The notes beneath the pieces are model-generated. The model saw only the letters and a program-made list of their open reading frames with translations. It was not told where the DNA came from and searched no databases. Shown one piece after another: positions 7,927-43,747 of a DNA stretch of 64,000 nucleotides (position 1 is its first letter; each line of letters begins with the position of its first letter). The DNA is from Pseudomonadales bacterium (GTDB lineage Bacteria > Pseudomonadota > Gammaproteobacteria > Pseudomonadales > Azotimanducaceae), in assembly GCA_036381275.1 (NCBI GenBank), contig DASVDC010000128.1:18667-82666 (forward strand), read 5' to 3'. The position numbers and the translations under genes are program-made.

Positions 7927-8538
7927 ATGCGATTCAGCGCGGTTCTGAGCACGGCGCTTCTGAGCGCCGTGCTGGCGCTCCGGGCGCACGCGGATTCGCC
8001 GAGCCCCGAGCTGGTCCGGCAGATCCAGTCCGATCTCACCACGCTCGGCTACGACCCGGACCCGGCCGACGGGACGCTCGGCACCAAGACGCGTCTCGCG
8101 ATCGGTCAGTTCGAGGCCGACCACGGGTTGCCGTTCACCGGTGCCCCGTCTTTCGAGCTCGCGTTCAAGATCCACGAAGCGCTCGCGACCGGCGCCAGCG
8201 CGCCGTCGGCTCCCGCCGCGGCACCGGCCGTTCCCGCGGCACCGACGGCACCGGCGGTGCCAGCAGCACCCGCCGTGCCGGCGAAGACGGTGGCGCAGCT
8301 CCAGCAGGAGTGCTTCGCGGCAGCGCAACAGGAGCAGAGAGCGAAGAAGAAGCGCTGGACGGCGCTGTCGAACCTGGGTACCCGACTCGCGAATCGGATC
8401 GGCGGCTACGAGGCGGTGCGGGAAGTGCACGAAGCCGCCGCAACCGTGCACGACGTGTCCACCGTCGCCCAGGAGCTCGGTATCAGCGAGGACGCCGTTC
8501 AGTCGTGCATCGAGCAATCGCAGGCCGCCGGAGGATGA
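7927..8538 (+). CDS. secreted peptidoglycan-binding (PG_binding_1) domain protein
   Basis: Signal peptide, then LTTLGYDPDPADGTLGTKTRLAIGQFEADHGLPFTG (the LGY..G..DG..G..T...I..FQ...GL pattern), then an Ala/Pro-rich linker. GGGGAGG lies upstream of the ATG. Confidence 0.75.
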   Translation: MRFSAVLSTALLSAVLALRAHADSPSPELVRQIQSDLTTLGYDPDPADGTLGTKTRLAIGQFEADHGLPFTGAPSFELAFKIHEALATGASAPSAPAAAPAVPAAPTAPAVPAAPAVPAKTVAQLQQECFAAAQQEQRAKKKRWTALSNLGTRLANRIGGYEAVREVHEAAATVHDVSTVAQELGISEDAVQSCIEQSQAAGG

Positions 8539-10211
8539 GCCGGCGCACTACGCCTCGCCATCGGCCAATCGACACGGGGAAGACCTCGAGGCGAATCGCC
8601 GGGATCCTGCTCGTGCCGCTGGCGTTCGCCGCGACGGTGCCGTCGGCGTCAGCGGCCGCGACAGCTCCGCCCGAGCTGATCCAACAGATCGAGCGGGACC
8701 TCACCACGCTCGGCTATGACCCCGGCCCCGTCGACGGGTCGCTCGACAGCCGGACGCAGCTCGCCATCGCCCGATTCGAAGCCGCGAGCGGCCTGCCTTT
8801 CAGCGGGCAGCCGAGCTTCGAGCTCGCGTTTGCACTGCGCAAGGCCATCGCAGCGGGTGCGCAGACGGCGAATGCGACACCGGCCGCCGCGCCAGCCGCA
8901 TCGGGTCCTGCGAAGGCCCCGCCAGTTGCCACTCCCGCGAGCCAGGCGACCGCCGGCGACTTCGCGCGGATGGCCACGGAGTGCGAGTCGCGGGCCGCGG
9001 CCGATCATCGCTTCCGTGCGTGCGCGATGCTCTGTCGACGTGCCGCTGACAACCCGGTGCCGATCCCGGAACCGGGCCGGCCCGCCACCACCGTCGTGAA
9101 CATGGGCGCCGCTACCGCCGCGTTGCAATGCCCGCAGCAATACGAGTCGGCGGTCGCCCTCGTCCGGCAGGAAGCCGAGGCCGCAGCGGCCGAGGAAGCG
9201 AAGCTCGCCGCGGTGGATCGTTCCGCCGTCGGCGCCCCGGGACCCGGCGACTACGTGTACGCCTACGAGTACGGTCCTCACCTCAGGATCGAGGCGCCGA
9301 ACGCGCGGCTGCGCGCGATCAAGGTACCGAGCCATGCGGGCAAGCCGCGCTTCGGTTACGCGGACACGCTCGGCGTGGAAGACCGTTTCAAGAGGAACAC
9401 CCTGAGCGCCGAACAGATTGCCGCCTACAAGCAGCGCCTCGAAGAGATGCGCCTGCACCGCACCGCGTATGCGCTGCTGGTGGCGATCCGGCTCCTCGAA
9501 CCGCGCCTGCGCGACACCGACCGTTCGACGATGTACGTCGGCGGCGCGCTGGACAGGAGCAGCCCGCAGCAGGCCGAGGAGTACCAGGCGCGTCTCTTGG
9601 TGCACGCCCTTGCGGCCATCGCCACCGGCCCCGACAGCTACGGCGACTACTTCTGCGGGCCGGGAACGCAGCGCTGCCATCCGCCCACGCCCGGGATGGC
9701 CATCGGCATCGGCTGGGGCGGCGCCAGGGCGGACGAATTCGCGCAGCGCGATGCGTTCCAGACCTTCATGCGCCGCGAGTTCGACGAGCTGCTCCGATGG
9801 TCGCAGAGCGTGCCGCGCGATGCCGTGATGGTCTCGCTGGCCACCATCGGCGAATACGATTTCGACAACGGCCGGTTCACCGGCGCGTTGCACCGAGGGA
9901 TGCAGAACCGGGATCTGGTGGGTCTCGGGTCGTCACCGCTGCTGGCGCTGCGGCCGGCCGACGGCGAATCGATCAGACAGGGTACCTTCGACCTCCCGAT
10001 GCCGATCGATGAGGCGCGCTCACTCCGTGAGCGGCTGAAATCGGGTCACAACGTGCTCTACGCCGTTGCCCCGATCCGCTTCGGCGCGGCCACGCTGGAG
10101 CCCTTCCGCAGCGCCACGCTCGATTACGAGATGATCGGCTCGCGCGTGAAGCTCTACTTCGACGAAGCGCTCACCGAGGAGCTCGCCGAGGTCAGCGTGA
10201 TCTGGCGTTGA
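8535..10211 (+). CDS. secreted PG_binding_1 domain protein with large uncharacterised C-terminal region
   Basis: ATG 8535 overlaps the upstream TGA (ATGA). Signal-like N-terminus, then a PG-binding module paralogous to the previous gene (LTTLGYDPGPVDGSLDSRTQLAIARFEAASGLPFSG). The ORF-track start at 8310 would overlap the upstream gene and was rejected. Confidence 0.7.
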   Translation: MSRRTTPRHRPIDTGKTSRRIAGILLVPLAFAATVPSASAAATAPPELIQQIERDLTTLGYDPGPVDGSLDSRTQLAIARFEAASGLPFSGQPSFELAFALRKAIAAGAQTANATPAAAPAASGPAKAPPVATPASQATAGDFARMATECESRAAADHRFRACAMLCRRAADNPVPIPEPGRPATTVVNMGAATAALQCPQQYESAVALVRQEAEAAAAEEAKLAAVDRSAVGAPGPGDYVYAYEYGPHLRIEAPNARLRAIKVPSHAGKPRFGYADTLGVEDRFKRNTLSAEQIAAYKQRLEEMRLHRTAYALLVAIRLLEPRLRDTDRSTMYVGGALDRSSPQQAEEYQARLLVHALAAIATGPDSYGDYFCGPGTQRCHPPTPGMAIGIGWGGARADEFAQRDAFQTFMRREFDELLRWSQSVPRDAVMVSLATIGEYDFDNGRFTGALHRGMQNRDLVGLGSSPLLALRPADGESIRQGTFDLPMPIDEARSLRERLKSGHNVLYAVAPIRFGAATLEPFRSATLDYEMIGSRVKLYFDEALTEELAEVSVIWR

Positions 10212-10218
10212 CAGCGAA

Positions 10219-10689
10219 TTGCTCGATGGCGCTTCGCGTTCTCGGTCCGAGAACACCATCCACAGGCTCGCCGGCGCGTTGCTCGTGCCCATACCTCTGA
10301 TGATCACGGCCGGGATCTCGAACGTGTTCGGGCAGGATCCATCGCGCAGAGTTCTCTCATTCATCTTATCGAGCCTGCTCGTGCTGGCGGCCGCTCTGGC
10401 GTTTTTCATGCGCGTTTCGATCCCCCCAGGCAGAAGCAGCGGACGACAAGTTATTTTCCTTGTTTACCACGCAGCGCCTGCGTTCGTCCACCGGACGAGT
10501 ACACAAAGGGGCAAAGCCGAAGCTATTGGAGACGAGAAAAGGTCGAGCCGATGCTCACCGCCGACCGCGCAGCGCGAAGCGTTCCGGACCTTCATGCGCC
10601 GGGAATTCGTCGAGCGGCTCCGGTGGTCGGAGAGTAATCGGCTCCCGCGACGGAGCGCTCACCGAGAAGTCAGCGCGGCCACCACCTGA
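10219..10689 (+). pseudogene. possible decayed paralogue remnant / doubtful ORF
   Basis: Lower-GC stretch. Its 3' part (REAFRTFMRREFVERLRWSE) duplicates an internal segment of the upstream gene (RDAFQTFMRREFDELLRWSQ). There is no convincing start or RBS, and it overlaps the 3' end of the convergent gene. Confidence 0.3.
10567..10636 (+). repeat. 70-nt diverged direct copy of 9741..9810
   Basis: Hand alignment gives 60/70 identical bases with no gaps to the coding segment 9741..9810 of the upstream PG-binding gene. Confidence 0.75.
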
Positions 10690-11183
10690 TCGACGACGGC
10701 CTCGGCCTTCGCCCGCATCTCGTCGTCCGTCGCGTCCTGGATCGGATGCGCGACGAACACCCGCCGCGCGTCGGTCATGCCGAGCGCCTTCGCCTGAGTC
10801 TCCGCCGCATCCACGAACTCGCTGGAGGCGATGCTCACCGCCGGCCGGCCGTGGATCTCGAAGTACACCGTGTCATGCAAACTGCACGTGGTGCACGATC
10901 CTCAGTCGGCGAGTGCCTCCACCACGAAATCCGCCTCCTCGACGATGCGCCGGCGCAGGTCGTCCGGTGCCGGCTTCGTGAAGGTGGGCTTCGCGTAGCG
11001 TTTGATCGTCACCTCCGGGGCGCGCTCGGCCAGCAGCTCCGCGAGCCGGTCGAGCAGCACGTTGCCGCGCGGCTTCGAGATGTCGAGCAGCGCCACGACG
11101 CCGCCGAGGCGCTGCGGCCGCGGCGTGATCGAGCGGGTCACCGGAACGCGCTCGTCCGTCGGGTCGAGAATCGTTGTCGTCAT
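10659..11183 (-). CDS. candidate selenoprotein with U-G-S-C-x-x-C motif (UGSC-type), in-frame TGA at 10902..10904
   Basis: ORFs 10902..11183 and 10659..10880 share one frame and are separated only by TGA plus 7 sense codons. Readthrough gives ...EALAD-U-GSCTTCSLHDTVYFEIHG... (174 aa). The downstream piece lacks an ATG/GTG start or an SD. A hairpin lies just 3' of the UGA. The ATG overlaps the upstream stop (ATGA). Confidence 0.6.
10853..10901 (-). promoter_or_regulatory. SECIS-like stem-loop immediately 3' of the in-frame UGA
   Basis: At mRNA +4..+52 from the UGA: GGAUC/GAUCC (5 bp), GUGCACC/GGUGUAC (7 bp, one G-U), CGUGC/GCAUG (5 bp, one G-U), and apical loop AGUUU at +22..+26. Folded by hand only. 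Confidence 0.45.
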
Positions 11184-12763
11184 CGAGCCTCCCTGATCTT
11201 CACCGAGACCGGCTGCGAGCCGATCTCACCCGTTGCCCAGCCGTGGAACGCGCCGGAGAACTTGCCCGCTTCGGCGCCGGCCACGACGATGTGAATGTCT
11301 TCTTCCCGGCGGAACTTGGGCAGCTCGCGGCCGAGCTGCTCCGCCGTCATCCGCTCCGCCGCCTCCTTCGGCACACCCGACCCGGACGTTTCGTCCTGCA
11401 CCAGCTCGCGCAGCGGCCGGCGCGTCACCTGCTGGATCCGCGCGCGGAGCTCCGCTTTGCCCCACCCGTCGCGGTGCAACGTGTCGACGTGCTCCGGGCA
11501 GACGACCAGCAGCGCGTCGGTGGTGTAGTGCAGCTTCGGCGCGAACGCCGACTCGAGACAGAGCCCGAACGTGCCGGCGAGCTGCGCGGCGCTGCGCGAC
11601 TGCTGATCGACGAGCTGCACCGGGCCGCTGGTCATCGCGAACGCGGTGACCACGGAATCGTCCGGCGCGAACCCCCGCTCGACGTGCAGCGGCGTCCAGG
11701 GGCTGCGCTCTTCCCACTCCGCGAAGCACATCGTGAACTTCATCGGATTGCCGAGCGTGGACCGTTCGGTGCCGCCCGGGCGCGCCCCGCCGACGTTGCG
11801 CAGCACCAGGCGCAGCGCGCGGCCGATCGTCGCGTTGGCGCGATTGCCCTGACCGAGCGCGCCGAGCTTCATGTTCATGCCGATGCGGTGCCGGATCGGG
11901 CCGTTCACGACCAGCACCGGGCTCGCGCCCATCGTGGTGGCCATCACCCCGTGCGCGTTGAACGTGTCCGTGCAGACCGCCTCGAGCGCCGCGAGCACCA
12001 CCGGCAGGTACTCCGGGCGGCAGCCGGCCATCACCGCGTTGATCGCGACCTTCTCGACCGTGACCTCCGCCATGTTCGGCGGCACCACGGCGATCACTTC
12101 CTGCGGGTCGCGGTCCGTGCCCGAGAGCATCCGCAGCACCCGTTCCGGCGTCGGCGGCACCACCGGCAGCCCGTCCGTCAGACCCTGATCGAACAGGAAC
12201 TCGTGCTCGTCGTCCTGCGCGCCGATCTCGATGCGCCGCGCCCGGAGCGGGCTGTTGGCGGCCGCCGCACGCAGCCGCTCGGCCACCAGCGGATCGGCCG
12301 ACGCGGAGCCGCAGCCGGGCTGCCACGCGGGCAGCGCCGCCCAGTGACACTCCGGTTCGGGAACTTGGAGCTCACTCGCCAGATCGGCGGCGAAAGCCTG
12401 CCATTCCTCCCGCACGAACCCGACCAGCGTGCGCCGACGCGCACCCTGCGCGTCCGTCACGACCAGGGTCGGCACGATCTCGACGTCCCAGCGGAACGAG
12501 ACCGTCAGATCGGCGTCGTCCAGCACCGCGCCGCCGCCCATCTTCTGCTCGAGCAACGCGTTGTCGGCGCCGCTCTGGCCCACCACCAGAAACGGCAGCG
12601 CCGCGCCGAATGCGCGCTGCCACGAACCGAGCAACGGCAGCACCGTCTCGCAGGTCGGGCAGTCCTTCTTCACGAAGCAGACGACGGTGGGCTCGCGGCC
12701 GGTGAAGGTGTGCTCCTCCCCGTGGCCGTCGCGGAGCGTGAACGCCGGCGCTGCGTCAGGCAT
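11180..12763 (-). CDS. thioredoxin-fold (redoxin-like, CPTC) protein fused to a large uncharacterised domain
   Basis: The N-terminus AFTLRDGHGEEHTFTGREPTVVCFVKKDCPTCETVLPLL looks TlpA/AhpC-TSA-like. The remaining ~390 aa (GLTDGLPVVPPT, AINAVMAGCRPEYLP, GNRANATIGRALRL) is not assignable by me. It overlaps both neighbours (8 nt and 4 nt). Confidence 0.8.
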   Translation of the reverse strand: MPDAAPAFTLRDGHGEEHTFTGREPTVVCFVKKDCPTCETVLPLLGSWQRAFGAALPFLVVGQSGADNALLEQKMGGGAVLDDADLTVSFRWDVEIVPTLVVTDAQGARRRTLVGFVREEWQAFAADLASELQVPEPECHWAALPAWQPGCGSASADPLVAERLRAAAANSPLRARRIEIGAQDDEHEFLFDQGLTDGLPVVPPTPERVLRMLSGTDRDPQEVIAVVPPNMAEVTVEKVAINAVMAGCRPEYLPVVLAALEAVCTDTFNAHGVMATTMGASPVLVVNGPIRHRIGMNMKLGALGQGNRANATIGRALRLVLRNVGGARPGGTERSTLGNPMKFTMCFAEWEERSPWTPLHVERGFAPDDSVVTAFAMTSGPVQLVDQQSRSAAQLAGTFGLCLESAFAPKLHYTTDALLVVCPEHVDTLHRDGWGKAELRARIQQVTRRPLRELVQDETSGSGVPKEAAERMTAEQLGRELPKFRREEDIHIVVAGAEAGKFSGAFHGWATGEIGSQPVSVKIREAR

Positions 12764-13541
12764 GCATCGCCTCCAGCGCCTTCAACATGCGCTTCAACGC
12801 GAAATGCCGGTAGCTCTCCTCGATCAGCGCCCCCACCTCCGGCCAGATCACGCCGTCCTCGGCGTCCAGCGAGATCCAGCCGTTGTGGCCGATGTAGCTC
12901 GGGATCCGGTAGCGCTCGTCCATCGTGAGCTGCGTCTGCCGCTCGGGGCCCACCCAGAACTGCAGCTCGAGCCGCCGGCGATACCGGTGCGCGGTGCAGA
13001 AGGTCTTCTTGCCGGCACGCCAGCAGGGGTTGCCGAACTGGACGGCCTCGGTGACCTCGGGCAGCCTCAGGCAGCGCTCCCGCACGCCGGCGATGATTTC
13101 CTGCGCGCGTGGCGCCGACAGCGGGTCGAATTCTTCGGGATCCACGGTCGCCTGCGGCGGCTCGATATCCTTCGGTGGACCCATGCGGGCCACCAGCTCC
13201 GGCGGCGCGGAGAACGCATACGCCTCCCGCACCAGCGCGCCGATGCGCCGCCAATCGAGCCCACGGTCGAGGTGCACGCCGAGCCAGCCCCGCGGGCCCA
13301 CGTACGGCGGCACGAAGAAGTGCTCCGGCTCGGCCTCCACGTACAGTTGCTGGGCGCCCGGCGGCATGTTGAGCAACAGCGCGATGCGCCCGTCGCCGTG
13401 GTGGTTCACCGTGTACGTCGCGAAGGTGCGCTTGCCGACGCGGAAGTCCGGCATGCCGTGCGACGGCACTTCGCGGGCCTCCGGCAGCCCGAGGCACAGC
13501 TCGCGAACGGCATCGCTGATGGTCTTCCTGCGCTTCGCCAC
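12756..13541 (-). CDS. tandem MmcQ/YjbR-family domain protein
   Basis: Two repeats of the YjbR-like pattern (LPEAREVPSHGMPDFRVGKRTFA...PPYVGPRGWLGVHL and LPEVTEAVQFGNPCWRAGKKTFC...PSYIGHNGWISLD). 261 aa. Confidence 0.8.
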   Translation of the reverse strand: MAKRRKTISDAVRELCLGLPEAREVPSHGMPDFRVGKRTFATYTVNHHGDGRIALLLNMPPGAQQLYVEAEPEHFFVPPYVGPRGWLGVHLDRGLDWRRIGALVREAYAFSAPPELVARMGPPKDIEPPQATVDPEEFDPLSAPRAQEIIAGVRERCLRLPEVTEAVQFGNPCWRAGKKTFCTAHRYRRRLELQFWVGPERQTQLTMDERYRIPSYIGHNGWISLDAEDGVIWPEVGALIEESYRHFALKRMLKALEAMHA

Positions 13542-16523: not shown

Positions 16524-17693
16524 ATGAGCGAGCTCGCCGAATTCCGCAAAGAGGTGGCCGCCTGGCTGAAGGACAACTGCCCCGAGGGGGCGCGTGGCCC
16601 CGGCCAGATCGCCACCGGCAGCAGCAAGATCAAGCTGGAGCCGGACGTCCAGCGCTGGCTCGAGCGCTGCGTCGAGCGGGGCTTCACCGCCCCGACCTGG
16701 CCGAAGCAGTACGGCGGCGGCGGGCTCTCCCCGGCCGAGGCGCAGGTCCTCTACGAGGAGATGGCGGCGATCCGCGCGCGCATGCCGCTGATGGGCATGG
16801 GCCTGTCGATGATCGGCCCCACGCTGCTCGAGTTCGGCACCGAGGATCAGAAAGCGCGGCACCTGCCGCGCATCGTCCGCGGCGAAGTGCAGTGGTGTCA
16901 GGGCTATTCGGAGCCGAGCGCGGGCTCGGACCTCGCCTCGTTGCGTACCCGGGCCGAAGACCGGGGCGACCACTTCGTGATCAACGGGCAGAAGATCTGG
17001 ACCTCCGGCGCGGCCACCGCCGACTGGATGTTCGCGCTGGTGCGCACCGATCCGGACGCGCCGAAGCACGAAGGCATCAGCTTCGTGCTCCTCACGATGG
17101 ACCAGCCGGGCGTCACCGTGCGGCCGATCCGGCTGATCTCGGGCAGCTCGCCGTTCTGCGAGACGTTCTTCGACAACGCGATCGCGAAGAAGGAGGACCT
17201 GGTCGGCGAGCTGAACAAGGGCTGGACGGTCGGCAAACGGCTGCTCCAGTTCGAGCGCTCCGGCATCGGCGGGCTATCGGGCGGTGCGCGCCGCCAGCCG
17301 AGCGAAGGGCTCGCCCGGCTCGCGAAGGAGTACGTCGGCGAAGAGAACGGCCGCATCGCCGATCCCGCCGTGCGCGCGAGCATCATCGACTTCAACATGC
17401 GTTCGCACGCGTTCCGGCTGACCGCCGCCCGCGTCAACGAGGAGAACCGTTCGGGCACGCCCGGCGAGGCCACCTCGATCTTCAAGCTGGTCGGCGCCCG
17501 CCTGCAGCAGAACGGTGCCGATCTGCGGCGTCAGCTGATGGGCACCCGCGGTCTCGGGGTGGACGGGTTCTCGCCGCGCGAGCTCGAGGCGACCACGGAA
17601 TGGCTCGCCACGAAGGCCACCACCATCTACGGCGGCAGCGACGAAATCCAGGCGAACATCATCGCGAAGCGCGTCCTCGGGCTCCCGGACTGA
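16524..17693 (+). CDS. acyl-CoA dehydrogenase family protein
   Basis: ACAD patterns (GYSEPSAGSDLASLRTRA, FVINGQKIWTSGA, and the C-terminal IYGGSDEIQANIIAKRVLGLP). Confidence 0.9.
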   Translation: MSELAEFRKEVAAWLKDNCPEGARGPGQIATGSSKIKLEPDVQRWLERCVERGFTAPTWPKQYGGGGLSPAEAQVLYEEMAAIRARMPLMGMGLSMIGPTLLEFGTEDQKARHLPRIVRGEVQWCQGYSEPSAGSDLASLRTRAEDRGDHFVINGQKIWTSGAATADWMFALVRTDPDAPKHEGISFVLLTMDQPGVTVRPIRLISGSSPFCETFFDNAIAKKEDLVGELNKGWTVGKRLLQFERSGIGGLSGGARRQPSEGLARLAKEYVGEENGRIADPAVRASIIDFNMRSHAFRLTAARVNEENRSGTPGEATSIFKLVGARLQQNGADLRRQLMGTRGLGVDGFSPRELEATTEWLATKATTIYGGSDEIQANIIAKRVLGLPD

Positions 17694-17698
17694 CGGTC

Positions 17699-18529
17699 AT
17701 GGCTTATCAGACGATCGACGTTCGGCCGCTCACCCCGCACATCGGCGCCGAGGTGGCCGGCGTCGATCTGTCCAAGCCGCTCGCGAACGAGCAGTTCAGC
17801 GAGGTCTATCAGGCCTGGCTCGACTGGAAGGTGCTGGTGTTCCGCGATCAGCACCTCGACCGGGAACAGCACAAGGCGTTCGCGCGCCGGTTCGGCCGCC
17901 TGCACGTGCACCCGATGCAGCACAGCTACGGCGGCGACCCGGAGATTCTCACCGTGAAGACCACGGCCACGTCGAAGTACACGGCCGGCAACGGCTGGCA
18001 CACCGACGTGAGCTGTGACGAGATTCCGCCGCTCGGTTCGATGCTCTACATGAAGCAGACGCCCGAGGGCGGCGGCGGTGATACGCTGTTCGCGGACATG
18101 TATCTCGCCTACGAGCTGCTGTCCGACACGATGAAGCGCATGCTGGACGGGCTCGTCGCGGTGCACGACGGCGCCCTGCCCTACCTCGGCGCCTACGGTG
18201 TCGCGCCGCCCGAGGGCCAGCAGTATCCGAAGCACGAGCATCCGGTGATCACCACGCATCCCGAGACCGGCCGCAAGGTGCTCTACGTGAACTCGGGCTT
18301 CACGTCGCACATCAAGGGCCTCGCGCCGTGGGAGAGCCGTCTGCTGCTGCAGGGGCTGTTCAATTTCATCGCCACCGAGGTGCGCCTGACGTGCCGGGTG
18401 CAGTGGCAGCCGAACACGCTGACGTTCTGGGACAACCGCTGCACGCAGCACCACGCGATCTGGGACTACCACCCCCACACCCGCCACGGGGAGCGGGTGT
18501 CCATCGTCGGTACCCAGCGGCCGGCCTGA
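17699..18529 (+). CDS. TauD/TfdA-family Fe(II)/2-oxoglutarate dioxygenase
   Basis: WHTDVS (HxD) motif and the C-terminal WDNRCTQHHA are typical of taurine-dioxygenase-like enzymes. The ATG lies 5 nt after the upstream stop. Confidence 0.9.
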   Translation: MAYQTIDVRPLTPHIGAEVAGVDLSKPLANEQFSEVYQAWLDWKVLVFRDQHLDREQHKAFARRFGRLHVHPMQHSYGGDPEILTVKTTATSKYTAGNGWHTDVSCDEIPPLGSMLYMKQTPEGGGGDTLFADMYLAYELLSDTMKRMLDGLVAVHDGALPYLGAYGVAPPEGQQYPKHEHPVITTHPETGRKVLYVNSGFTSHIKGLAPWESRLLLQGLFNFIATEVRLTCRVQWQPNTLTFWDNRCTQHHAIWDYHPHTRHGERVSIVGTQRPA

Positions 18530-22472: not shown

Positions 22473-22910
22473 TCAGAAGAACTCGGGCACGTGCTGCTCG
22501 AGCTTATCGGCCGGCAGCGTGGTGAGCTCCTTGTCGATGGTCAATGCGACGAGATCCGCAGCAGGGGCGCTCAGATGCGCGCGAATCTGCCCGAGGAACC
22601 GCGGCGGTGCGATCAGGACCAGGCGTTCGAGCTCACCTCTGGTGCGTCCCTCCTCCAGTCGAGCCGCCACCCGCTTCGCGAAGATGGCCATCTCGTGATC
22701 CTTCGTGGTGTTCCGGTTGCCCATCGCGTGGCGGCCCGGGCCGCCCGCGTCGAAGGAGCGTCCGCCGCCCCTGTCGGTGACCAGGTCACCTTCGTGGAGC
22801 CGGTGCTCGGGGGAAAGCAGGGTATCGAATTCTTCCAGCTTGCGGTTCTTGTGCCGGTTGAACAACCGGGCCCGTGTACCGTCCGCGACGACCACCCAGG
22901 TATTACCCAT
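22473..22910 (-). CDS. host-attachment-protein family (PF10116-like) protein
   Basis: Pattern WVVVADGTRARLF...LVLIAPPRFLGQIR...L. Start placed at ATG 22910 (AAGGGGG RBS) rather than the track start at 22940. Confidence 0.65.
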   Translation of the reverse strand: MGNTWVVVADGTRARLFNRHKNRKLEEFDTLLSPEHRLHEGDLVTDRGGGRSFDAGGPGRHAMGNRNTTKDHEMAIFAKRVAARLEEGRTRGELERLVLIAPPRFLGQIRAHLSAPAADLVALTIDKELTTLPADKLEQHVPEFF

Positions 22911-23032
22911 GAGGCCCCCTTTGTCTGTCGGTTTGAACACCTACGGCGAACCCGCACGATCCATTCTCGCCATGCGCGCACGAAAGTAAAACGGCAGCGG
23001 GCTCGGGCAGGCGGTTTGACGATTGATCCGGA

Positions 23033-27236: not shown

Positions 27237-27617
27237 ATGAACTACGACGACGCCCGCGCCTACCTCGCCGGCAAGCCCGAAGCGGTGGAAGACTTTCCGT
27301 TCGGGCCCGACGTGCGCGTGTTCCGCATCCGCGGGCGCCTCTTTGCACTGCTGATGACGCGGCACGGCCAGGATCAGGTGAACCTCAAGTGCGATCCGGA
27401 AGAGGCCCTCGCGCTGCGCGACATCTTCGACGCGGTGCGGCCCGGTTACCACATGAACAAGGCGCACTGGAACACGGTGCTGCTCGACGGCTCGATTCCG
27501 CGCGGCGAAATCGAGCGGATGATGGATCGCTCGTACGCGCTGGTGGTGCGCTCGCTGCGCAAGGCGGATCGGATCGCGCTCGAGGTGCGGCACGGGCGGG
27601 ACGCCCTCTACCGTTGA
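27237..27617 (+). CDS. MmcQ/YjbR-family DNA-binding-like protein
   Basis: Pattern AYLAGKPEAVEDFPFGPDVRVFRIRGRLFALL...GYHMNKAHWNTV is typical of YjbR. 126 aa. Confidence 0.8.
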   Translation: MNYDDARAYLAGKPEAVEDFPFGPDVRVFRIRGRLFALLMTRHGQDQVNLKCDPEEALALRDIFDAVRPGYHMNKAHWNTVLLDGSIPRGEIERMMDRSYALVVRSLRKADRIALEVRHGRDALYR

Positions 27618-32462: not shown

Positions 32463-33683
32463 ATGGGCAGACGCCGCCGTCGCACCTTGCCGAAGTACCT
32501 CGAGCGACATCCCCTGAACGGTTGCTACTATTACAAGAACCCCTCGATGCCTCAGAAGGCGAACCTCGGCACGGTGGAAGCCGACGCCGTCGACGTCGCC
32601 AATCGGCTCAATACCCAGTTCGAGCGCGACCGGTCGAGGCGCGACGCCATCGCCCGAGCCAGTGAGCGACTCGACGGTGTGCGTTTCGAGCCAGCCTTCA
32701 CCGCGTTCGTCGAGAAATACATCCGGGACTATCGCCTCAAGTCCAGCACCGCCGCTCGCCTTCGGCAGCGCCGCGATCGACTCAACGCGCACTTGGGCAA
32801 CACCAGCCTGTCGCTGGTGGACACCCAGGCGCTGCGGGAGGTGATCGCCTCATCCAGCCAATTCGAGCAGACGAAGCTGCGGACGCTGCTGTCCCGATTC
32901 TTCCAGTACGCGATTTCGGTAGGCGCCTATCCCGGTTCTTTCGCGAATCCGGTCGACAACCTCTACGTCGACCCGAATCCTCCCAAGCGGCGAACGCGAA
33001 TGACCCTGGCGCAGTTTCGAGCGATCCACGACGCGGCCCCTGAATGGCTGCAGTGGTTGATGACGCTCGGTATCCATCTGGCGCTGCGACGCGTCGACCT
33101 GGTGAATCTACGCTTCGACGACATCGCCGGTGACCGGATCGTCAGTCCGATCCGCAAGACCGACAGCGACGCCCGCGGCAGCGAGTCGATCAGCGTCGAC
33201 TTTCCGATCCATCGCGACGTTCGTGCGGTATTGATCAAGGCTCGGCGCTCGAGCCTCGCGAACGGCCGCTGCCCATTCATCATCCACCGCACGCCGGACA
33301 GAAAGACCAAGCGCGCCGCGGACGCGATGCGGCTCGGGCGCATGGAACATCCGGCTCAGGTTCTTCCCGAGTATGCGAGCAAGGCCTTCGCGAAGGCTCG
33401 AGCCCTCGCAACCGAGAGGACGACCCACTTCGCCGGCCTCGAAGAGCGGGACATGCCTACGCTGCACGAGATCCGGGCGCTCTCGTCGTACCTGTACGCG
33501 GTGGCGGGTTACGACGTCGATGCGGTGCAAGACCTGATGGCCCACACCGATCCGGACATGACGCGGGCGTATCAGAAGGGGCATGCCCGCAAGGTCGTTC
33601 GGGTCGAGATGATACTGCCGTTCGGCATTCGCGACCCGGACCCGGAGATTCGGGAGGCCCGGGCGCGCTACGCCGTCGCCTAG
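32463..33683 (+). CDS. int: lambda-family tyrosine recombinase / phage integrase
   Basis: The arm-binding N-terminus MGRRRRRTLPKYLERHPLNGCYYYKNP parallels lambda Int. Catalytic signature R (LALRRVDL), HxxR (HEIRALS), H..Y (AHTDPDMTRAY). Confidence 0.9.
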   Translation: MGRRRRRTLPKYLERHPLNGCYYYKNPSMPQKANLGTVEADAVDVANRLNTQFERDRSRRDAIARASERLDGVRFEPAFTAFVEKYIRDYRLKSSTAARLRQRRDRLNAHLGNTSLSLVDTQALREVIASSSQFEQTKLRTLLSRFFQYAISVGAYPGSFANPVDNLYVDPNPPKRRTRMTLAQFRAIHDAAPEWLQWLMTLGIHLALRRVDLVNLRFDDIAGDRIVSPIRKTDSDARGSESISVDFPIHRDVRAVLIKARRSSLANGRCPFIIHRTPDRKTKRAADAMRLGRMEHPAQVLPEYASKAFAKARALATERTTHFAGLEERDMPTLHEIRALSSYLYAVAGYDVDAVQDLMAHTDPDMTRAYQKGHARKVVRVEMILPFGIRDPDPEIREARARYAVA

Positions 33684-33689
33684 AGAGTT

Positions 33690-33711
33690 TTCTCTAAGAA
33701 TTCTCTAAGAG
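33690..33711 (+). repeat. tandem 11-bp direct repeat (possible integrase arm-type sites)
   Basis: TTCTCTAAGAA-TTCTCTAAGAG lies between the integrase stop and the tRNA 3' end. It is preceded by the inverted TAGAGA-gttt-TCTCTA. Confidence 0.5.
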
Positions 33712-33754
33712 CACGACCCAGATGCGTCTTAAGCTATTGAAAATAAAGGGGATT

Positions 33755-33830
<76 letters not shown>

Positions 33831-37678: not shown

Positions 37679-38401
37679 ATGAAGCCGGAACGCCCGCCGC
37701 GCGGCGTGCTGGCGCTGATCCCGGCACGCAGCGGCTCGAAGTCGGTGCCGCACAAGAACATCCGCCCGTTCGCGGGCAAGCCGATGCTCGCGCATTCCAT
37801 CGAGCACGCGCACGCGGCGCGCTGCGTCGACCGGGTCATCGTCAGCACCGACAGCGAGCAGTACGCCGAGATCGCCCGGTCGTACGGCGCGGAAACCCCG
37901 TTCCTGCGCCCGGCCGAGCTCGCCGCCGACGACTCCACCGATCTCGTGGTGTTCCGCCATGCGCTCGACTGGCTCCGGGAGCACGAGCGGTGGCAACCGG
38001 AGATCGTCGTGCACCTGCGGCCCACCTACCCGACGCGGAACCCAGCGGACATCGACCGGGTGGTGGATATCCTGCGCGCGGACGAGACGCTCGACTCGGT
38101 GCGCACGGTGGCGCCGGCGCCGGCGACGCCGTTCAAGATGTGGCTGCGCGGCGAGGACGGGCTGCTCACGCCGGTCGTCGACCGCGGCGACGAAGCGTAC
38201 AACAGGCCGCGGCAGGCGCTGCCCCCGGTTTTTCTGCAGAACGCCTGCATCGACGCGGTGCGGTCGCGGGTGATTCTGGAGCAGCACTCCATGACCGGTC
38301 GGCGCATCTACGGCTACGTGCTCGACGAGAACCTGGACATCGACACTCCGGAGGATCTGGAAGTCGCACTGGCCAGCATGGAGACCCGTCGCGGGTCATG
38401 A
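37679..38401 (+). CDS. acylneuraminate (nonulosonate) cytidylyltransferase family protein
   Basis: The N-terminus LALIPARSGSKSVPHKNIRPFAGKPMLAHSI is the CMP-NeuAc/KDO synthetase signature. An alternative GTG start at 37664 overlaps the upstream stop. Confidence 0.85.
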   Translation: MKPERPPRGVLALIPARSGSKSVPHKNIRPFAGKPMLAHSIEHAHAARCVDRVIVSTDSEQYAEIARSYGAETPFLRPAELAADDSTDLVVFRHALDWLREHERWQPEIVVHLRPTYPTRNPADIDRVVDILRADETLDSVRTVAPAPATPFKMWLRGEDGLLTPVVDRGDEAYNRPRQALPPVFLQNACIDAVRSRVILEQHSMTGRRIYGYVLDENLDIDTPEDLEVALASMETRRGS

Positions 38402-39930
38402 CGAAGCAGGGAATTCCGATGCAGAACGCTCTTCAAAACGCCGCGTTCAACGGCTTGTTCATCTTCGAGATGGCGAACAACCACCAGGGCTCCGTGGCCC
38501 ACGGTCGCCGCATCATCGACGCGATGGCCGACATCGCGTCGCGCCACGGCATCCGCGGCGCGGTGAAGTTCCAGTACCGTGATCTCGACACCTTCATCCA
38601 TCCCGACTATCGCGAGCGCGACGACGTCGCCCACATCCCGCGCTTCCTCAGCACGCGCCTCACGGACGACGACTTCCGGACGCTGATCGAGCACGTCCGG
38701 GGCTCTGGCCTCGTGCCCGTGGTCACGCCGTTCGACGAGGCATCGGTGCAGAAGTGCCTCGATCACGGCGTCGAGATCATCAAGATCGCCTCCTGCAGCG
38801 CCACCGACTGGCCGCTTCTCGAAGCGGTGGCGTCCACCGGCAAGCCGGTGATCGCGTCCACCGGCGGTGTGCCGGTTCACGACATCGACAAGCTGGTGAG
38901 CTTCTTCCAGCACCGCTCGGTGCGCTTCGCGCTGATGCATTGCGTGTCCATCTACCCGACGCCGAACGACTGCCTGCAGATGAGCTTCCTCGCGAAGATG
39001 AAGAGCCGCTATCCGGGCGTCCCGATCGGCTATTCGGGCCACGAAGATCCGGACAACCGTGAGGTGGTCGTCGCCGCGATCGCGAAGGGTGCCGATCTGC
39101 TCGAGCGCCACGTCGGGGTCGCGACGGACACGATCACGCTGAACAAGTACTCGATGAACCCGCAGCAGACCGATGCCTGGGTGGCGGCGGCGCTCCGCGC
39201 CCGGGCGATCTGCGGTGACGGCGGGCCGAAGCAGGTCACCGAGGAAGAACGGGAATCGCTACGTTCGCTCGAGCGCGGCGTCTACGCGAGAAGGCCGATC
39301 CGCGCCGGGCAACCGATCGAGCCGGGCGACGTGTTCTTCGCGATGCCGCGCCAGCCCGGGCAGCTCACCTCCGGCGAGTTCGGCCGTTACCGCGCCACGT
39401 TCCACGCGTCCCGCGACTACGCGCCCGGCGAGGCGCTGACGGAACGTGCGAGTGACGACCCGGTGCTGGACGTGCGCGAGGCGCTGCACGACGCGAAGGG
39501 CATGCTGTACGAGGCCCAGATCAAAATCGGCGAGACGGATCAGGTCGAGCTCTCCCACCACTACGGCATGGAGCGGTTCCGCGAGGTCGGCGCCGTGTTC
39601 GTCCACGTGGTGAACCGCGAGTACTGCAAGAAGCTCGGCGTGATGCTGCCCGGTCAGCGCCATCCGGTGCACCGCCACCAGCGGAAGGAAGAGACCTTCC
39701 AACTGCTCTGGGGCGATCTGTCCGTGCAGCGGGACGGCGAGGTGTTCGATCTGCAGCCCGGTGACAAGCTGGTGATCGAGCGGGGAATGCCGCACGCGTT
39801 CTGGAGCCGCAACGGCGGCATCTTCGAGGAGATCTCCACCACCGACGTGCGCGGCGATTCGCTCTACGAGGACGCCGCGATCAACCGCCTGGATCCGATG
39901 CAGCGGAAGACGTTCCTCGAATCCTGGTGA
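38398..39930 (+). CDS. N-acetylneuraminate-synthase-family (NeuB-like) protein with SAF domain and C-terminal cupin
   Basis: NeuB core (IFEMANNHQGS...VKFQ...IKIASCS...GYSGHE), a SAF-like segment (ARRPIRAGQPIEPGDVFF), then a cupin (GQRHPVHRHQRKEETFQLLWG...GMPHAFW). ATGA overlap with the upstream gene. Confidence 0.85.
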   Translation: MTKQGIPMQNALQNAAFNGLFIFEMANNHQGSVAHGRRIIDAMADIASRHGIRGAVKFQYRDLDTFIHPDYRERDDVAHIPRFLSTRLTDDDFRTLIEHVRGSGLVPVVTPFDEASVQKCLDHGVEIIKIASCSATDWPLLEAVASTGKPVIASTGGVPVHDIDKLVSFFQHRSVRFALMHCVSIYPTPNDCLQMSFLAKMKSRYPGVPIGYSGHEDPDNREVVVAAIAKGADLLERHVGVATDTITLNKYSMNPQQTDAWVAAALRARAICGDGGPKQVTEEERESLRSLERGVYARRPIRAGQPIEPGDVFFAMPRQPGQLTSGEFGRYRATFHASRDYAPGEALTERASDDPVLDVREALHDAKGMLYEAQIKIGETDQVELSHHYGMERFREVGAVFVHVVNREYCKKLGVMLPGQRHPVHRHQRKEETFQLLWGDLSVQRDGEVFDLQPGDKLVIERGMPHAFWSRNGGIFEEISTTDVRGDSLYEDAAINRLDPMQRKTFLESW

Positions 39931-39955
39931 TGCGCGAAGTCGCGCAGCCGGGCCG

Positions 39956-43743: not shown

Positions 43744-43747
43744 CCCG

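What the first reader, a model, noticed from the sequence alone, without database searches (positions are those of the whole stretch)
10659..11183. An in-frame UGA fuses two apparent ORFs into one U-G-S-C-x-x-C selenoprotein candidate with a SECIS-like hairpin
Seen directly: minus-strand ORFs 10902..11183 and 10659..10880 share one frame. They are separated only by TGA (10902..10904) and 7 sense codons. Read through, the junction is ...VVEALAD-U-GSCTTCSLHDTVYFEIHGRP..., so the 'stop' sits exactly in a redox-type U-x-x-C-x-x-C motif. The 7 'intergenic' codons themselves encode the Cys pair. The downstream piece has no ATG/GTG start and no Shine-Dalgarno (the track begins it at a TTG), so independent translation is unlikely.

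Directly 3' of the UGA the mRNA can form an interrupted 17-bp stem-loop at +4..+52. Its parts are GGAUC/GAUCC, GUGCACC/GGUGUAC and CGUGC/GCAUG, with apical loop AGUUU at +22..+26. That distance and the GU-containing loop resemble bacterial SECIS elements.

From memory: RefSeq uses the product name 'UGSC family (seleno)protein' for a computationally defined family of unknown function. I cannot verify membership here.
Basis: partly seen in the sequence, partly recalled or inferred. Interest (0 to 1): 0.85.

Follow-up and report, generated by a model that had tools for sequence, protein, structure and literature searches.

The report
UGSC-family selenoprotein gene with SECIS
The two small ORFs are one gene for a selenocysteine-containing protein of the already catalogued UGSC family; its function is still unknown, but it is consistently paired with a thioredoxin-like partner gene.

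Summary
Minus-strand 11183..10659 is one reading frame with a single in-frame TGA (10904..10902). Read through, it gives ALAD-U-GSCTTC.

With U replaced by C, the product passes NCBIfam's curated cut-off for NF041046 'UGSC family (seleno)protein' (163.7 bits against 125). It also matches Pfam PF24696 over its full length.

In the best 80 species genomes kept from a scan that confirmed 490 relatives, the aligned codon is TGA in all 80, and the downstream frame is conserved. In the window, 37 of 44 predicted genes stop at TGA, so the codon is not reassigned.

The hairpin after the UGA meets every criterion of the published bacterial SECIS model. Its apical stem-loop shows no synonymous variation across 81 sequences.

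The selenocysteine-insertion genes could not be checked for this genome, and none lie in the 64 kb window. In three related loci, selB and tRNA-Sec sit directly upstream of the same gene pair.

Findings beyond the catalogue entry:
- A 527-aa partner gene (a TlpA-like thioredoxin domain plus a ~340-aa domain with no Pfam, NCBIfam or PDB match) lies directly upstream in 76 of 80 loci. In other genomes that unannotated domain is fused to UGSC.
- The predicted UGSC fold is flavodoxin-like, not thioredoxin-like.

Verdict: real, correctly interpreted, a member of a known family whose function is unknown.

The parts
10659..11183 (-). Complete coding sequence of the UGSC-family selenoprotein: 174 residues including Sec94, plus the terminal TGA stop at 10659-10661.
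   Evidence: One frame with a single internal TGA. NF041046 163.7 bits and PF24696 165.1 bits, full-length matches.
10902..10904 (-). In-frame UGA, read as selenocysteine (codon 94).
   Evidence: TGA at the aligned codon in 80 of 80 related species loci and in L084-L087. The Cys form L082 has TGT.
10884..10904 (-). Codons for the U-G-S-C-T-T-C motif (UxxCxxC), the presumed redox centre.
   Evidence: G, S, C, T, T and C are invariant in 81 sequences. In the AF2 model of the Cys homologue the motif lies between strand 3 and helix 3.
10853..10901 (-). SECIS-like stem-loop of 49 nt, starting 1 nt after the UGA.
   Evidence: MFE -19.2 kcal/mol, z = -2.8. Per-helix pairing across 76 distinct sequences: 76%, 89% and 100%.
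10874..10888 (-). Apical SECIS hairpin CGUGCA-GUU-UGCAUG (6 bp, loop G-U-N). This is the presumed SelB-binding part. The loop is at 10880-10882.
   Evidence: Pairs in 76 of 76 sequences. Codons +5 to +7 have 0 bits of synonymous entropy and codon +8 has 0.27 bits, against roughly 0.9-2.3 bits at most other 4- and 6-fold codons. RNAalifold keeps this helix. It fits the bSECIS model criteria.
11188..11194 (-). Shine-Dalgarno AGGGAGG, 4 nt before the UGSC ATG and inside the end of the partner gene.
   Evidence: Read from the sequence.
11180..12763 (-). Partner gene, 527 aa. Its TGA stop overlaps the UGSC start (ATGA).
   Evidence: Directly upstream on the same strand in 76 of 80 loci, at 52-74% identity, and also in L082 and L084-L087. 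At least 8000 homologues.
12359..12763 (-). Partner N-terminal TlpA/ResA-like thioredoxin-fold domain (residues 1-135), with invariant C35-P-T-C38 at 12650-12661.
   Evidence: Foldseek against ResA: TM 0.72-0.79 normalised to the target. Profile against PDB ResA: E = 4.8e-7. Invariant columns in A4.
11183..12181 (-). Partner C-terminal domain of about 340 aa with no annotation in Pfam, NCBIfam or PDB (called 'X domain' here).
   Evidence: No Pfam hit at E <= 10 and no PDB sequence hit. 5428 cluster representatives. Fused to the UGSC N-terminal half in 11 of 20 representatives tested.
12756..13541 (-). YjbR-domain gene whose stop overlaps the partner start by 8 nt. This is a local operon neighbour only.
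   Evidence: Pfam YjbR, E = 2.1e-29. Present in only 5 of 80 related loci.

Best explanation
**What it is.** Window 11183..10659 (minus strand) is a single gene for a 174-residue cytoplasmic selenoprotein of the UGSC family.

**How the UGA is decoded.** The UGA at 10904..10902 is decoded as selenocysteine. A SECIS stem-loop inside the coding sequence begins 1 nt after the UGA. Its conserved apical hairpin (6 bp, loop G-U-N, 19 nt after the UGA) is the kind of element that SelB·GTP·Sec-tRNA(Sec) binds to out-compete release factor 2. This step is inferred from the established bacterial mechanism.

**The protein.** Sec94 heads a U-G-S-C-T-T-C motif. In the predicted flavodoxin-like alpha/beta fold, the motif sits at the end of strand 3 and the start of helix 3.

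**Operon context.** The gene is translationally coupled (ATGA overlap) to an upstream 527-aa protein. That protein carries a TlpA/ResA-like thioredoxin domain (CPTC) and an unannotated ~340-aa domain with conserved cysteines.

**Most likely function (inferred, not shown).** The three modules form a selenol/thiol redox relay.
1. The ~340-aa domain binds or acts on an unknown substrate.
2. The Sec/Cys centre of UGSC supplies the reactive selenolate and cycles through a selenenyl-sulfide with Cys97 or Cys100.
3. The thioredoxin-like domain re-reduces it.
For: **Family membership.**
- NF041046 at 163.7 bits, above the 125-bit cut-off; PF24696 over positions 1-171 of 172.

**The UGA is translated.**
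- TGA in 80 of 80 species loci, followed by an invariant GSCTTC.
- pN/pS is 0.23 downstream of the TGA and 0.31 upstream.
- TGA is the normal stop in 37 of 44 window genes, and this is the only gene with an in-frame TGA.
- Natural Cys forms exist: P0006, and P0007 whose locus L082 has TGT.

**SECIS.**
- It meets all four criteria of the bSECIS model quoted in PMC13188914. These are a 3-9 nt loop, a 4-16 bp upper stem, G in the first two loop positions (here A-GUU-U, matching N1-G[G|U]-N-N2), and 16-37 nt spacing (here 19) with MFE <= -7.5 (here -19.2).
- The apical helix pairs in 76 of 76 distinct sequences.
- Thr ACG, Cys TGC and Ser AGT have zero synonymous entropy in 81 sequences, and Leu TTG has 0.27 bits. 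Most other 4- and 6-fold codons have roughly 0.9-2.3 bits.
- The middle helix shows compensatory changes at three pairs. In the window itself C-G becomes G-C and U-A becomes C-G.

**Link to the Sec machinery.**
- L086 reads selA-selB-tRNA-Sec-partner-UGSC.
- L061 has selA upstream on the opposite strand, then selB-tRNA-Sec-partner-UGSC.
- L074 reads selB-tRNA-Sec-partner-UGSC.

**Partner.**
- Directly upstream in 76 of 80 loci.
- The X domain is fused to UGSC in 11 of 20 cluster representatives tested. In 9 of the 11 the protein ends at UGSC profile position 92, which is the Sec codon.
- The thioredoxin fold of the N-terminal domain is supported.

**Fold.**
- AF2 model of the Cys homologue: pLDDT 86.6, five beta-alpha units. 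The best PDB matches are lumazine synthase, flavodoxin and chromate reductase.
Against: - No selA, selB, selD or tRNA-Sec lies in the 64 kb window, and the rest of the genome could not be searched.
- There is no experimental evidence of selenium incorporation for this gene. The papers read here describe the family as computationally predicted and of unknown function.
- The apical helix is almost invariant, so it gives no true covariation. Its only change is G-U to G-C. RNAalifold's covariation term is only -0.34 kcal/mol.
- The outer helix is poorly conserved (76% paired).
- A Cys-form gene keeps the same hairpin. Nucleotide conservation there is therefore not proof of present SECIS use. It is the known 'remnant SECIS' pattern described in PMC1794560.
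- The redox-relay function is inference from motifs, fold, synteny and fusions. No substrate is known.
- Foldseek TM-scores for UGSC are low (0.35-0.49).
Confidence: 0.88

Rival explanations
1. The TGA is a real stop. The locus encodes a 93-residue protein, and the downstream 80 codons are an untranslated remnant or a separately initiated 73-residue protein starting at the TTG.
For: Gene callers split it this way in the window and in most database entries, which are ~95-100 aa proteins ending in ALAD. No Sec machinery is visible in the window.
Against: The seven codons between the TGA and the TTG encode an invariant G-S-C-T-T-C-S in 81 sequences. The TTG codon is GTG, CTG or ATG in relatives, where it encodes Leu, Val or Met at a variable position. 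Purifying selection is at least as strong after the TGA as before it. Both family profiles (Pfam 172 positions, NCBIfam 147) span the stop. Cys homologues are read straight through. No Shine-Dalgarno sequence lies at a usable distance from the TTG.
Confidence: 0.03
2. The UGA is read through without selenium. Trp or Cys would be inserted by near-cognate or suppressor decoding, or Cys by SelB carrying Cys-tRNA(Sec), or the organism has a reassigned TGA.
For: Some database entries translate the position as W (P0002, P0004), presumably under an alternative-code call. Selenium incorporation has not been shown.
Against: TGA terminates 37 of 44 genes in the window and is in-frame nowhere else, so the code is not reassigned. 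A SECIS-type hairpin under strong synonymous constraint follows the codon. selB and tRNA-Sec are linked to the operon in three loci. The position aligns with Cys, not Trp, in natural non-Sec forms.
Confidence: 0.04
3. The gene is a decaying pseudogene in this particular genome, which would have lost the Sec trait, even though the family is real elsewhere.
For: The Sec machinery is unverified for this genome. One relative (L083/P0001) has GGA at the site together with a frameshifted partner gene, which shows that such decay or assembly error occurs.
Against: The window copy has an intact frame, GC3 of 0.89-0.95 on both sides of the TGA, an intact partner gene with ATGA coupling and a Shine-Dalgarno sequence, and a hairpin kept by two compensatory pair changes. 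It is 81-82% identical to the closest relatives with mostly synonymous differences. An identical copy occurs in an independent assembly (L081).
Confidence: 0.05

Closest known systems
UGSC family (seleno)protein: NCBIfam NF041046, Pfam PF24696; the 'UGSC-containing protein' of Zhang and Gladyshev (PMC1976440, PMC2398784)
   Same: Full-length profile match above the curated cut-off. U-G-S-C motif at the aligned position. Sec forms far outnumber Cys forms: 255 against 21 in the GOS dataset per PMC2398784, and TGA in 80 of 80 loci here. SECIS lies directly after the UGA. Fusion with an unknown domain ('Unknown_1') was reported in 2008 and is seen here as X-domain-UGSC fusions.
   Different: Nothing about the gene itself differs. 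The literature calls the family 'likely Trx-like fold' (PMC2398784, PMC13188914), whereas the AF2 model here is flavodoxin-like, with no thioredoxin-fold match among the 50 best matches listed. The two-gene arrangement with a TlpA-like-plus-X partner and the selB-tRNA-Sec linkage are not mentioned in the papers I could read.
Bacterial SECIS elements (the E. coli fdhF type and the bSECIS consensus model behind bSECISearch)
   Same: A stem-loop inside the coding region immediately 3' of the UGA. Small apical loop with G then U in its first positions. 19-nt spacing. 6-bp upper stem.
   Different: The sequence is family-specific. No Rfam family matched at gathering threshold. SelB binding was not tested.
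Glycine reductase selenoprotein B (GrdB) and D-proline reductase PrdB
   Same: The same UxxCxxC spacing of Sec and two Cys (PMC13188914). Each selenoprotein works with a larger substrate-handling partner and is re-reduced through thioredoxin-type chemistry.
   Different: No detectable sequence similarity: no Pfam GRDB hit at E <= 1 in 31 family members. Different size. The organisms here are mostly aerobic Pseudomonadales-type bacteria, not amino-acid fermenters. This is a resemblance of motif only.
TlpA/ResA/CcmG thiol-disulfide oxidoreductases (closest to the partner's N-terminal domain)
   Same: Thioredoxin fold with a CxxC motif. TM 0.72-0.79 to ResA. Database names such as 'TlpA family protein disulfide reductase'.
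   Different: TlpA/ResA are membrane-anchored and periplasmic-facing. The partner has no evident signal peptide or membrane anchor at its N-terminus (by inspection). It also carries an extra ~390 residues that include the unannotated X domain.

Membership tests
UGSC family (seleno)protein (NF041046 / PF24696) | Whole-protein score above the curated NCBIfam cut-off (equivalog model) | tested here: met
   163.7 bits against a 125-bit cut-off; residues 29-172 on profile positions 4-147 of 147.
UGSC family (seleno)protein (NF041046 / PF24696) | Full-length Pfam PF24696 match | tested here: met
   165.1 bits against 25; residues 4-172 on profile positions 1-171 of 172.
UGSC family (seleno)protein (NF041046 / PF24696) | U/C-G-S-C motif at the aligned position, with Sec/Cys pairs among homologues | tested here: met
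   ALAD-U-GSC in the window and in 80 loci. CGSC in P0006 and P0007, and TGT in L082.
Bacterial selenoprotein gene (Sec-decoded UGA) | In-frame UGA with a conserved, selected downstream reading frame | tested here: met
   80 of 80 loci have TGA. pN/pS is 0.23 downstream.
Bacterial selenoprotein gene (Sec-decoded UGA) | SECIS fitting the bSECIS model: 3-9 nt loop, 4-16 bp upper stem, G in loop position 1 or 2, 16-37 nt spacing, MFE <= -7.5 kcal/mol | tested here: met
   Loop GUU, 6-bp stem, 19-nt spacing, -19.2 kcal/mol. Conserved in 76 of 76 sequences.
Bacterial selenoprotein gene (Sec-decoded UGA) | Covariation support for the SECIS helices | tested here: inconclusive
   The apical helix is invariant apart from G-U to G-C. 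The middle helix has three pairs with compensatory changes but 11% unpaired cells. The alifold covariation term is -0.34. Support comes instead from synonymous-site constraint.
Bacterial selenoprotein gene (Sec-decoded UGA) | selA, selB, selC (tRNA-Sec) and selD in the same genome | not testable with these tools
   None in the 64 kb window, and the rest of the genome is not available. In related loci L086, L061 and L074, selB and tRNA-Sec lie directly upstream of the operon. selA is also present in L086 and L061.
Bacterial selenoprotein gene (Sec-decoded UGA) | Selenium shown in the protein (75Se labelling or mass spectrometry) | not testable with these tools
   This needs an experiment.
Thioredoxin-fold oxidoreductase (as the literature suggests for UGSC) | Thioredoxin fold (beta-alpha-beta-alpha-beta-beta-alpha) carrying the redox motif | tested here: not met
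   The AF2 model of the Cys homologue P0007 (pLDDT 86.6) is five beta-alpha units. The 50 best PDB matches listed are mostly flavodoxin-like (lumazine synthase, flavodoxin, chromate reductase) and include no thioredoxin fold. Caveats: a predicted model of a 53%-identical homologue, with TM-scores of only 0.35-0.49.
GrdB/PrdB selenoprotein family (Pfam GRDB) | Sequence homology to GRDB | tested here: not met
   No GRDB hit at E <= 1 in any of 31 members. Only the UxxCxxC spacing is shared.

The most novel reading that the evidence does not exclude
UGSC is the selenium-bearing redox subunit of a widespread, uncharacterised enzyme system. The system's core would be the unannotated ~340-aa 'X' domain: 5428 cluster representatives and no Pfam, NCBIfam or PDB relative. 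In different lineages this core is served by a fused thioredoxin-like domain, by a separate UGSC protein, or by a fused UGSC domain. In some genomes the operon is welded to selB-tRNA-Sec. That would suggest the Sec trait there is maintained largely for this one system. UGSC would also have to be reclassified from 'Trx-like' to a flavodoxin-like selenoprotein fold.
Probability: 0.45. Interest if true: 0.5.

Novelty: new member of a known kind. Interest (0 to 1): 0.3.

Why it matters
**For annotation.** This is a standard selenoprotein mis-call. Two 'hypothetical' ORFs should be merged into one UGSC-family selenoprotein.

**For biology.** The family is one of the most abundant predicted selenoprotein families in aquatic metagenomes, and a 2026 review still lists it as uncharacterised. 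The context found here gives a concrete, testable handle on its function. That context has three parts:
- an obligate partner with a thioredoxin-like domain plus an unannotated domain;
- frequent fusion of that domain to UGSC;
- occasional linkage to selB and tRNA-Sec.

None of this changes the basic classification of the finding.

Tried and rejected
- **PDB sequence searches.** UGSC gave nothing meaningful. For the partner, the single-sequence search gave only two weak hits, neither significant. The profile search gave only thioredoxin-domain hits.
- **Foldseek of the whole partner model.** It was swamped by thioredoxin-domain matches, so the X domain's fold relatives remain unknown.
- **Pfam on the X domain at E <= 10.** No hit. 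NCBIfam: none.
- **Rfam at gathering threshold.** Only tRNA-Gly matched, and no SECIS family.
- **Homology to GrdB/PrdB.** Suggested by the UxxCxxC motif, but not supported.
- **Conserved neighbours other than the partner.** TauD-family dioxygenase, acyl-CoA dehydrogenase and MFS transporter genes recur only among related Pseudomonadales loci and at variable positions. I treat this as lineage synteny, not functional linkage.
- **The YjbR gene overlapping the partner start.** It is present in only 5 of 80 loci.
- **Figure S1 of the 2008 paper (UGSC/Unknown_1 fusion).** It is held only as an image, so I could not confirm that Unknown_1 is the X domain.
- **Promoter and terminator scan around the operon.** Nothing above chance.
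Full report
**1. Observation**

On the minus strand, window 11183..10659 translates as one frame of 175 codons with a single internal stop. That stop is TGA at 10904..10902, codon 94. The junction reads ...EEADFVVEALAD*GSCTTCSLHDTVYFEIHGRP.... The mechanical ORF list splits this into a 93-aa ATG-started ORF (10902..11183) and a 73-aa TTG-started ORF (10659..10880) in the same frame.

A scan of all six frames looked for coding-like sequence (GC3 > 0.82) continuing on both sides of an in-frame TGA. It found this site and no other in the 64 kb window. TGA is the ordinary stop of 37 of 44 predicted genes in the window, so the codon is not reassigned.

**2. Family membership**

With U written as C, the product scores 163.7 bits on NCBIfam NF041046, 'UGSC family (seleno)protein'. 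This is an equivalog model with a curated cut-off of 125 bits. The product also scores 165.1 bits on Pfam PF24696 'UGSC', covering profile positions 1-171 of 172. Both profiles span the stop codon.

The family appears in the literature as the 'UGSC-containing protein'.
- It was first mentioned in 2007 as unpublished data, present in Hyphomonas neptunium (PMC1976440).
[quoted passage not shown] - A 2026 review still lists it among families identified computationally whose functions remain largely uncharacterised (PMC13188914).

**3. Is the UGA translated?**

A protein search returned mostly 95-100-residue proteins that end in ...ALAD, which are the same gene cut at the TGA. It also returned a few full-length proteins carrying C, W, G or R at the site.

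The best 80 loci come from Pseudomonadales and other Gammaproteobacteria, Binataceae, Dehalococcoidia and other Chloroflexi, and Phenylobacterium and other Caulobacterales.
- In all 80 the aligned codon is TGA and the frame continues as GSCTTCS[LV]HD.
- Four more divergent loci (L084-L087) show the same.
- Comparing the window with these loci, the median pN/pS is 0.23 for the 70 codons after the TGA and 0.31 for the 60 codons before it.
- The natural Cys form P0007 (locus L082) has TGT at the site.

**4. The hairpin**

Counting the T of TGA as position 1, the mRNA folds into three helices.

| Element | 5' arm | 3' arm | Paired across 76 distinct sequences |
|---|---|---|---|
| Lower helix | GGAUC (4-8) | GAUCC (48-52) | 76% |
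| Middle helix | GUGCACC (9-15) | GGUGUAC (36-42) | 89% |
| Upper helix | CGUGCA (17-22) | UGCAUG (26-31) | 100% (76 of 76) |

The loop is GUU (23-25). MFE is -19.2 kcal/mol and z = -2.8.

The bacterial SECIS consensus quoted in PMC13188914 has four requirements. The window meets all four.

| Criterion | Required | Window |
|---|---|---|
| Apical loop | 3-9 nt | 3 nt (GUU) |
| Upper stem | 4-16 bp | 6 bp |
| Spacing and stability | 16-37 nt from the UGA; MFE <= -7.5 kcal/mol | 19 nt; -19.2 kcal/mol |

Across the 76 distinct sequences, the upper helix changes only from G-U to G-C. In the middle helix, three pairs show changes on both sides. The window itself carries two of these compensations (C-G to G-C and U-A to C-G), tied to a Trp-to-Tyr change at codon +13.

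Because the apical helix is nearly invariant, formal covariation is weak. RNAalifold keeps that helix with a covariation term of only -0.34 kcal/mol.

The stronger evidence is synonymous-site constraint. In 81 sequences:
- Thr(+5) is always ACG.
- Cys(+6) is always TGC.
- Ser(+7) is always AGT, one of six possible codons.
- Leu(+8) is TTG in 95%.
- Other invariant Ser, Ala, Leu, Pro and Gly codons in the same gene use 4-6 codons, mostly with 1.2-2.3 bits of entropy.

The third loop base varies (U, G, C, A) while G-U is fixed. The constraint therefore falls exactly on the part of a SECIS that SelB would recognise.

One caution applies. The Cys-form gene in L082 keeps the same hairpin. This matches the 'remnant SECIS' pattern described for recent Sec-to-Cys conversions in PMC1794560. 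It also shows that sequence conservation alone does not prove present use.

**5. Selenocysteine machinery**

The window has one tRNA (Gly) and no Rfam hit beyond it. Pfam scans of 41 window proteins found no SelA, SelB or SelD. tblastn with SelA and SelB from L086 found nothing in the window.

Indirect support is strong, however.
- Locus L086 reads selA-selB-tRNA-Sec(UCA)-partner-UGSC.
- The Phenylobacterium locus L061 has selA upstream on the opposite strand, then selB-tRNA-Sec-partner-UGSC.
- The Phenylobacterium locus L074 reads selB-tRNA-Sec-partner-UGSC.

**6. Surroundings: a conserved partner**

The UGSC ATG (11183..11181) overlaps the TGA stop of an upstream 527-aa gene (11180..12763) as ATGA. 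A Shine-Dalgarno sequence, AGGGAGG, lies 4 nt upstream of the ATG. A homologue of that gene, 52-74% identical, sits directly upstream on the same strand in 76 of 80 loci. It is also there in L082 and L084-L087. Four loci (three Chloroflexi-lineage MAGs and one unclassified bacterium) lack it at that position.

The partner's parts are as follows.
- **N-terminal 135 residues.** A TlpA/ResA-type thioredoxin fold with invariant C35-P-T-C38. Foldseek TM is 0.72-0.79 normalised to the target, and the profile hit to ResA has E = 4.8e-7. Databases name the whole protein 'TlpA family protein disulfide reductase' on that basis.
- **Linker.** It carries an invariant P-G-C151-G.
- **Last ~340 residues ('X domain').** No Pfam hit even at E <= 10, no NCBIfam hit and no PDB sequence relative. 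Yet the domain has 5428 cluster representatives at E <= 1e-3.

I tested 20 representatives with other architectures. In 11 of them the X domain is followed by the UGSC N-terminal half. In 9 of those 11 the protein ends at UGSC profile position 92, which is the Sec codon. These are X-UGSC fusion selenoproteins cut short by gene callers. They are probably the 'UGSC/Unknown_1' fusion of the 2008 paper, although I could not confirm that identity because the figure is held only as an image.

Other neighbours are lineage-specific synteny, not conserved linkage. These are the TauD-family dioxygenase, acyl-CoA dehydrogenase, MFS transporter and the YjbR gene that overlaps the partner start.

**7. Fold**

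The model has pLDDT 86.6 and pTM 0.82. It has five beta-alpha units, with the C/U-G-S-C motif between strand 3 and helix 3.

The best PDB matches are lumazine synthase, flavodoxins, chromate reductase and dipicolinate synthase B. These are flavodoxin-like three-layer sandwiches. TM-scores are only 0.35-0.49, and no thioredoxin fold appears among the 50 best matches listed.

This disagrees with the 'Trx-like fold' label in the literature. The disagreement rests on a predicted model of a homologue.

**8. How it most likely works**

Shown:
- It is one gene.
- The UGA is under selection to be read through.
- A SECIS-type element is under RNA-level selection.
- It belongs to the UGSC family.
- It is coupled to the partner by operon structure and, in other genomes, by fusion.

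Inferred from the established bacterial mechanism:
- SelB·GTP·Sec-tRNA(Sec) binds the apical hairpin and delivers Sec at the UGA.

Inferred from motif, fold position and context:
- Sec94 with Cys97 and Cys100 (UxxCxxC) forms a selenol/thiol redox centre at a helix N-terminus.
- That centre works with the X domain, which would handle an unknown substrate.
- The centre is recycled by the CPTC thioredoxin-like domain.

The same UxxCxxC spacing occurs in glycine reductase GrdB (PMC13188914). There is no detectable homology to that family.

**9. Rivals**

Three rivals remain and are each unlikely:
- a genuine stop with a dead or separately started tail;
- selenium-independent readthrough;
- a pseudogene in a genome that has lost the Sec trait.

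The evidence against them is the invariant inter-ORF codons, the selection pattern, normal TGA usage elsewhere in the window, the intact coupled operon, and an identical copy in an independent assembly. They cannot be fully excluded without the whole genome or an experiment.

**10. Verdict**

It is a further member of a catalogued selenoprotein family, so its novelty is low. The remaining interest lies in the family's unknown function. Three results here make that function more testable: the partner and fusion evidence, the selB-tRNA-Sec linkage, and the flavodoxin-like fold prediction.

Noticed in passing
window 11183-12181 (-), C-terminal part of the 527-aa partner: A ~340-aa domain with no Pfam, NCBIfam or PDB sequence match, yet 5428 cluster representatives. 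It occurs alone (~345-375 aa), behind a thioredoxin-like domain (~520-550 aa), as apparent tandem repeats judged from protein length and number of matched stretches (~710-740 aa), and fused to UGSC.
   Followed up: partly
L086 1-5528; L061 144-5815; L074 2-4135: The Sec machinery is physically joined to the operon. L086 reads selA-selB-tRNA-Sec-partner-UGSC. The two Phenylobacterium MAG loci read selB-tRNA-Sec-partner-UGSC, and L061 also has selA on the opposite strand upstream.
   Followed up: yes
L082 1229-1294: A natural Cys form (TGT) of UGSC keeps the SECIS-like apical hairpin CGTGCAGTGTGCACG and the partner gene upstream. It looks like a recent Sec-to-Cys conversion with a remnant SECIS.
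   Followed up: partly
L083 8509-10543: A 70%-identical relative (P0001) has GGA (Gly) in place of TGA, and its partner gene is split by a frameshift. This is either decay of the system or indel and substitution errors in that assembly.
   Followed up: partly
L084 and L085 2100-5531: Two partner paralogues precede UGSC: a full 535-aa Trx-plus-X protein, then a 375-aa X-domain-only protein.
   Followed up: partly
window 32463-33830: A phage-type integrase gene (32463-33683, +) lies next to the only tRNA in the window, tRNA-Gly(GCC) at 33755-33830 (-). This may be the edge of an integrated element.
   Followed up: no
window 22473-22940 (-): A 155-aa protein matches Pfam Host_attach and baeRF_family12, a bacterial release-factor-like family. 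It lies about 11 kb from the recoded UGA, and no link to it was found.
   Followed up: no
window 16524-18511 (+): An acyl-CoA dehydrogenase gene is followed by a TauD/TfdA-family dioxygenase gene. Similar genes recur near UGSC in about 22-28 related loci at variable positions, which looks like lineage synteny.
   Followed up: partly
window 12756-13541 (-) and 27237-27617 (+): There are two YjbR-domain genes. The first (261 aa, with the YjbR domain matched twice) overlaps the partner start by 8 nt but accompanies UGSC in only 5 of 80 loci.
   Followed up: partly
window 8310-10211 (+): A 633-aa ORF with a peptidoglycan-binding domain lies convergent to UGSC. It did not pass my GC3/GC2 coding filter and is covered by many overlapping ORFs. 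The same gene is called as 558 aa in the independent contig L081.
   Followed up: no
window 37990-43800: A NeuB-plus-cupin fusion protein (646 aa) is followed on the opposite strand by a hydantoinase/oxoprolinase B and A gene pair.
   Followed up: no
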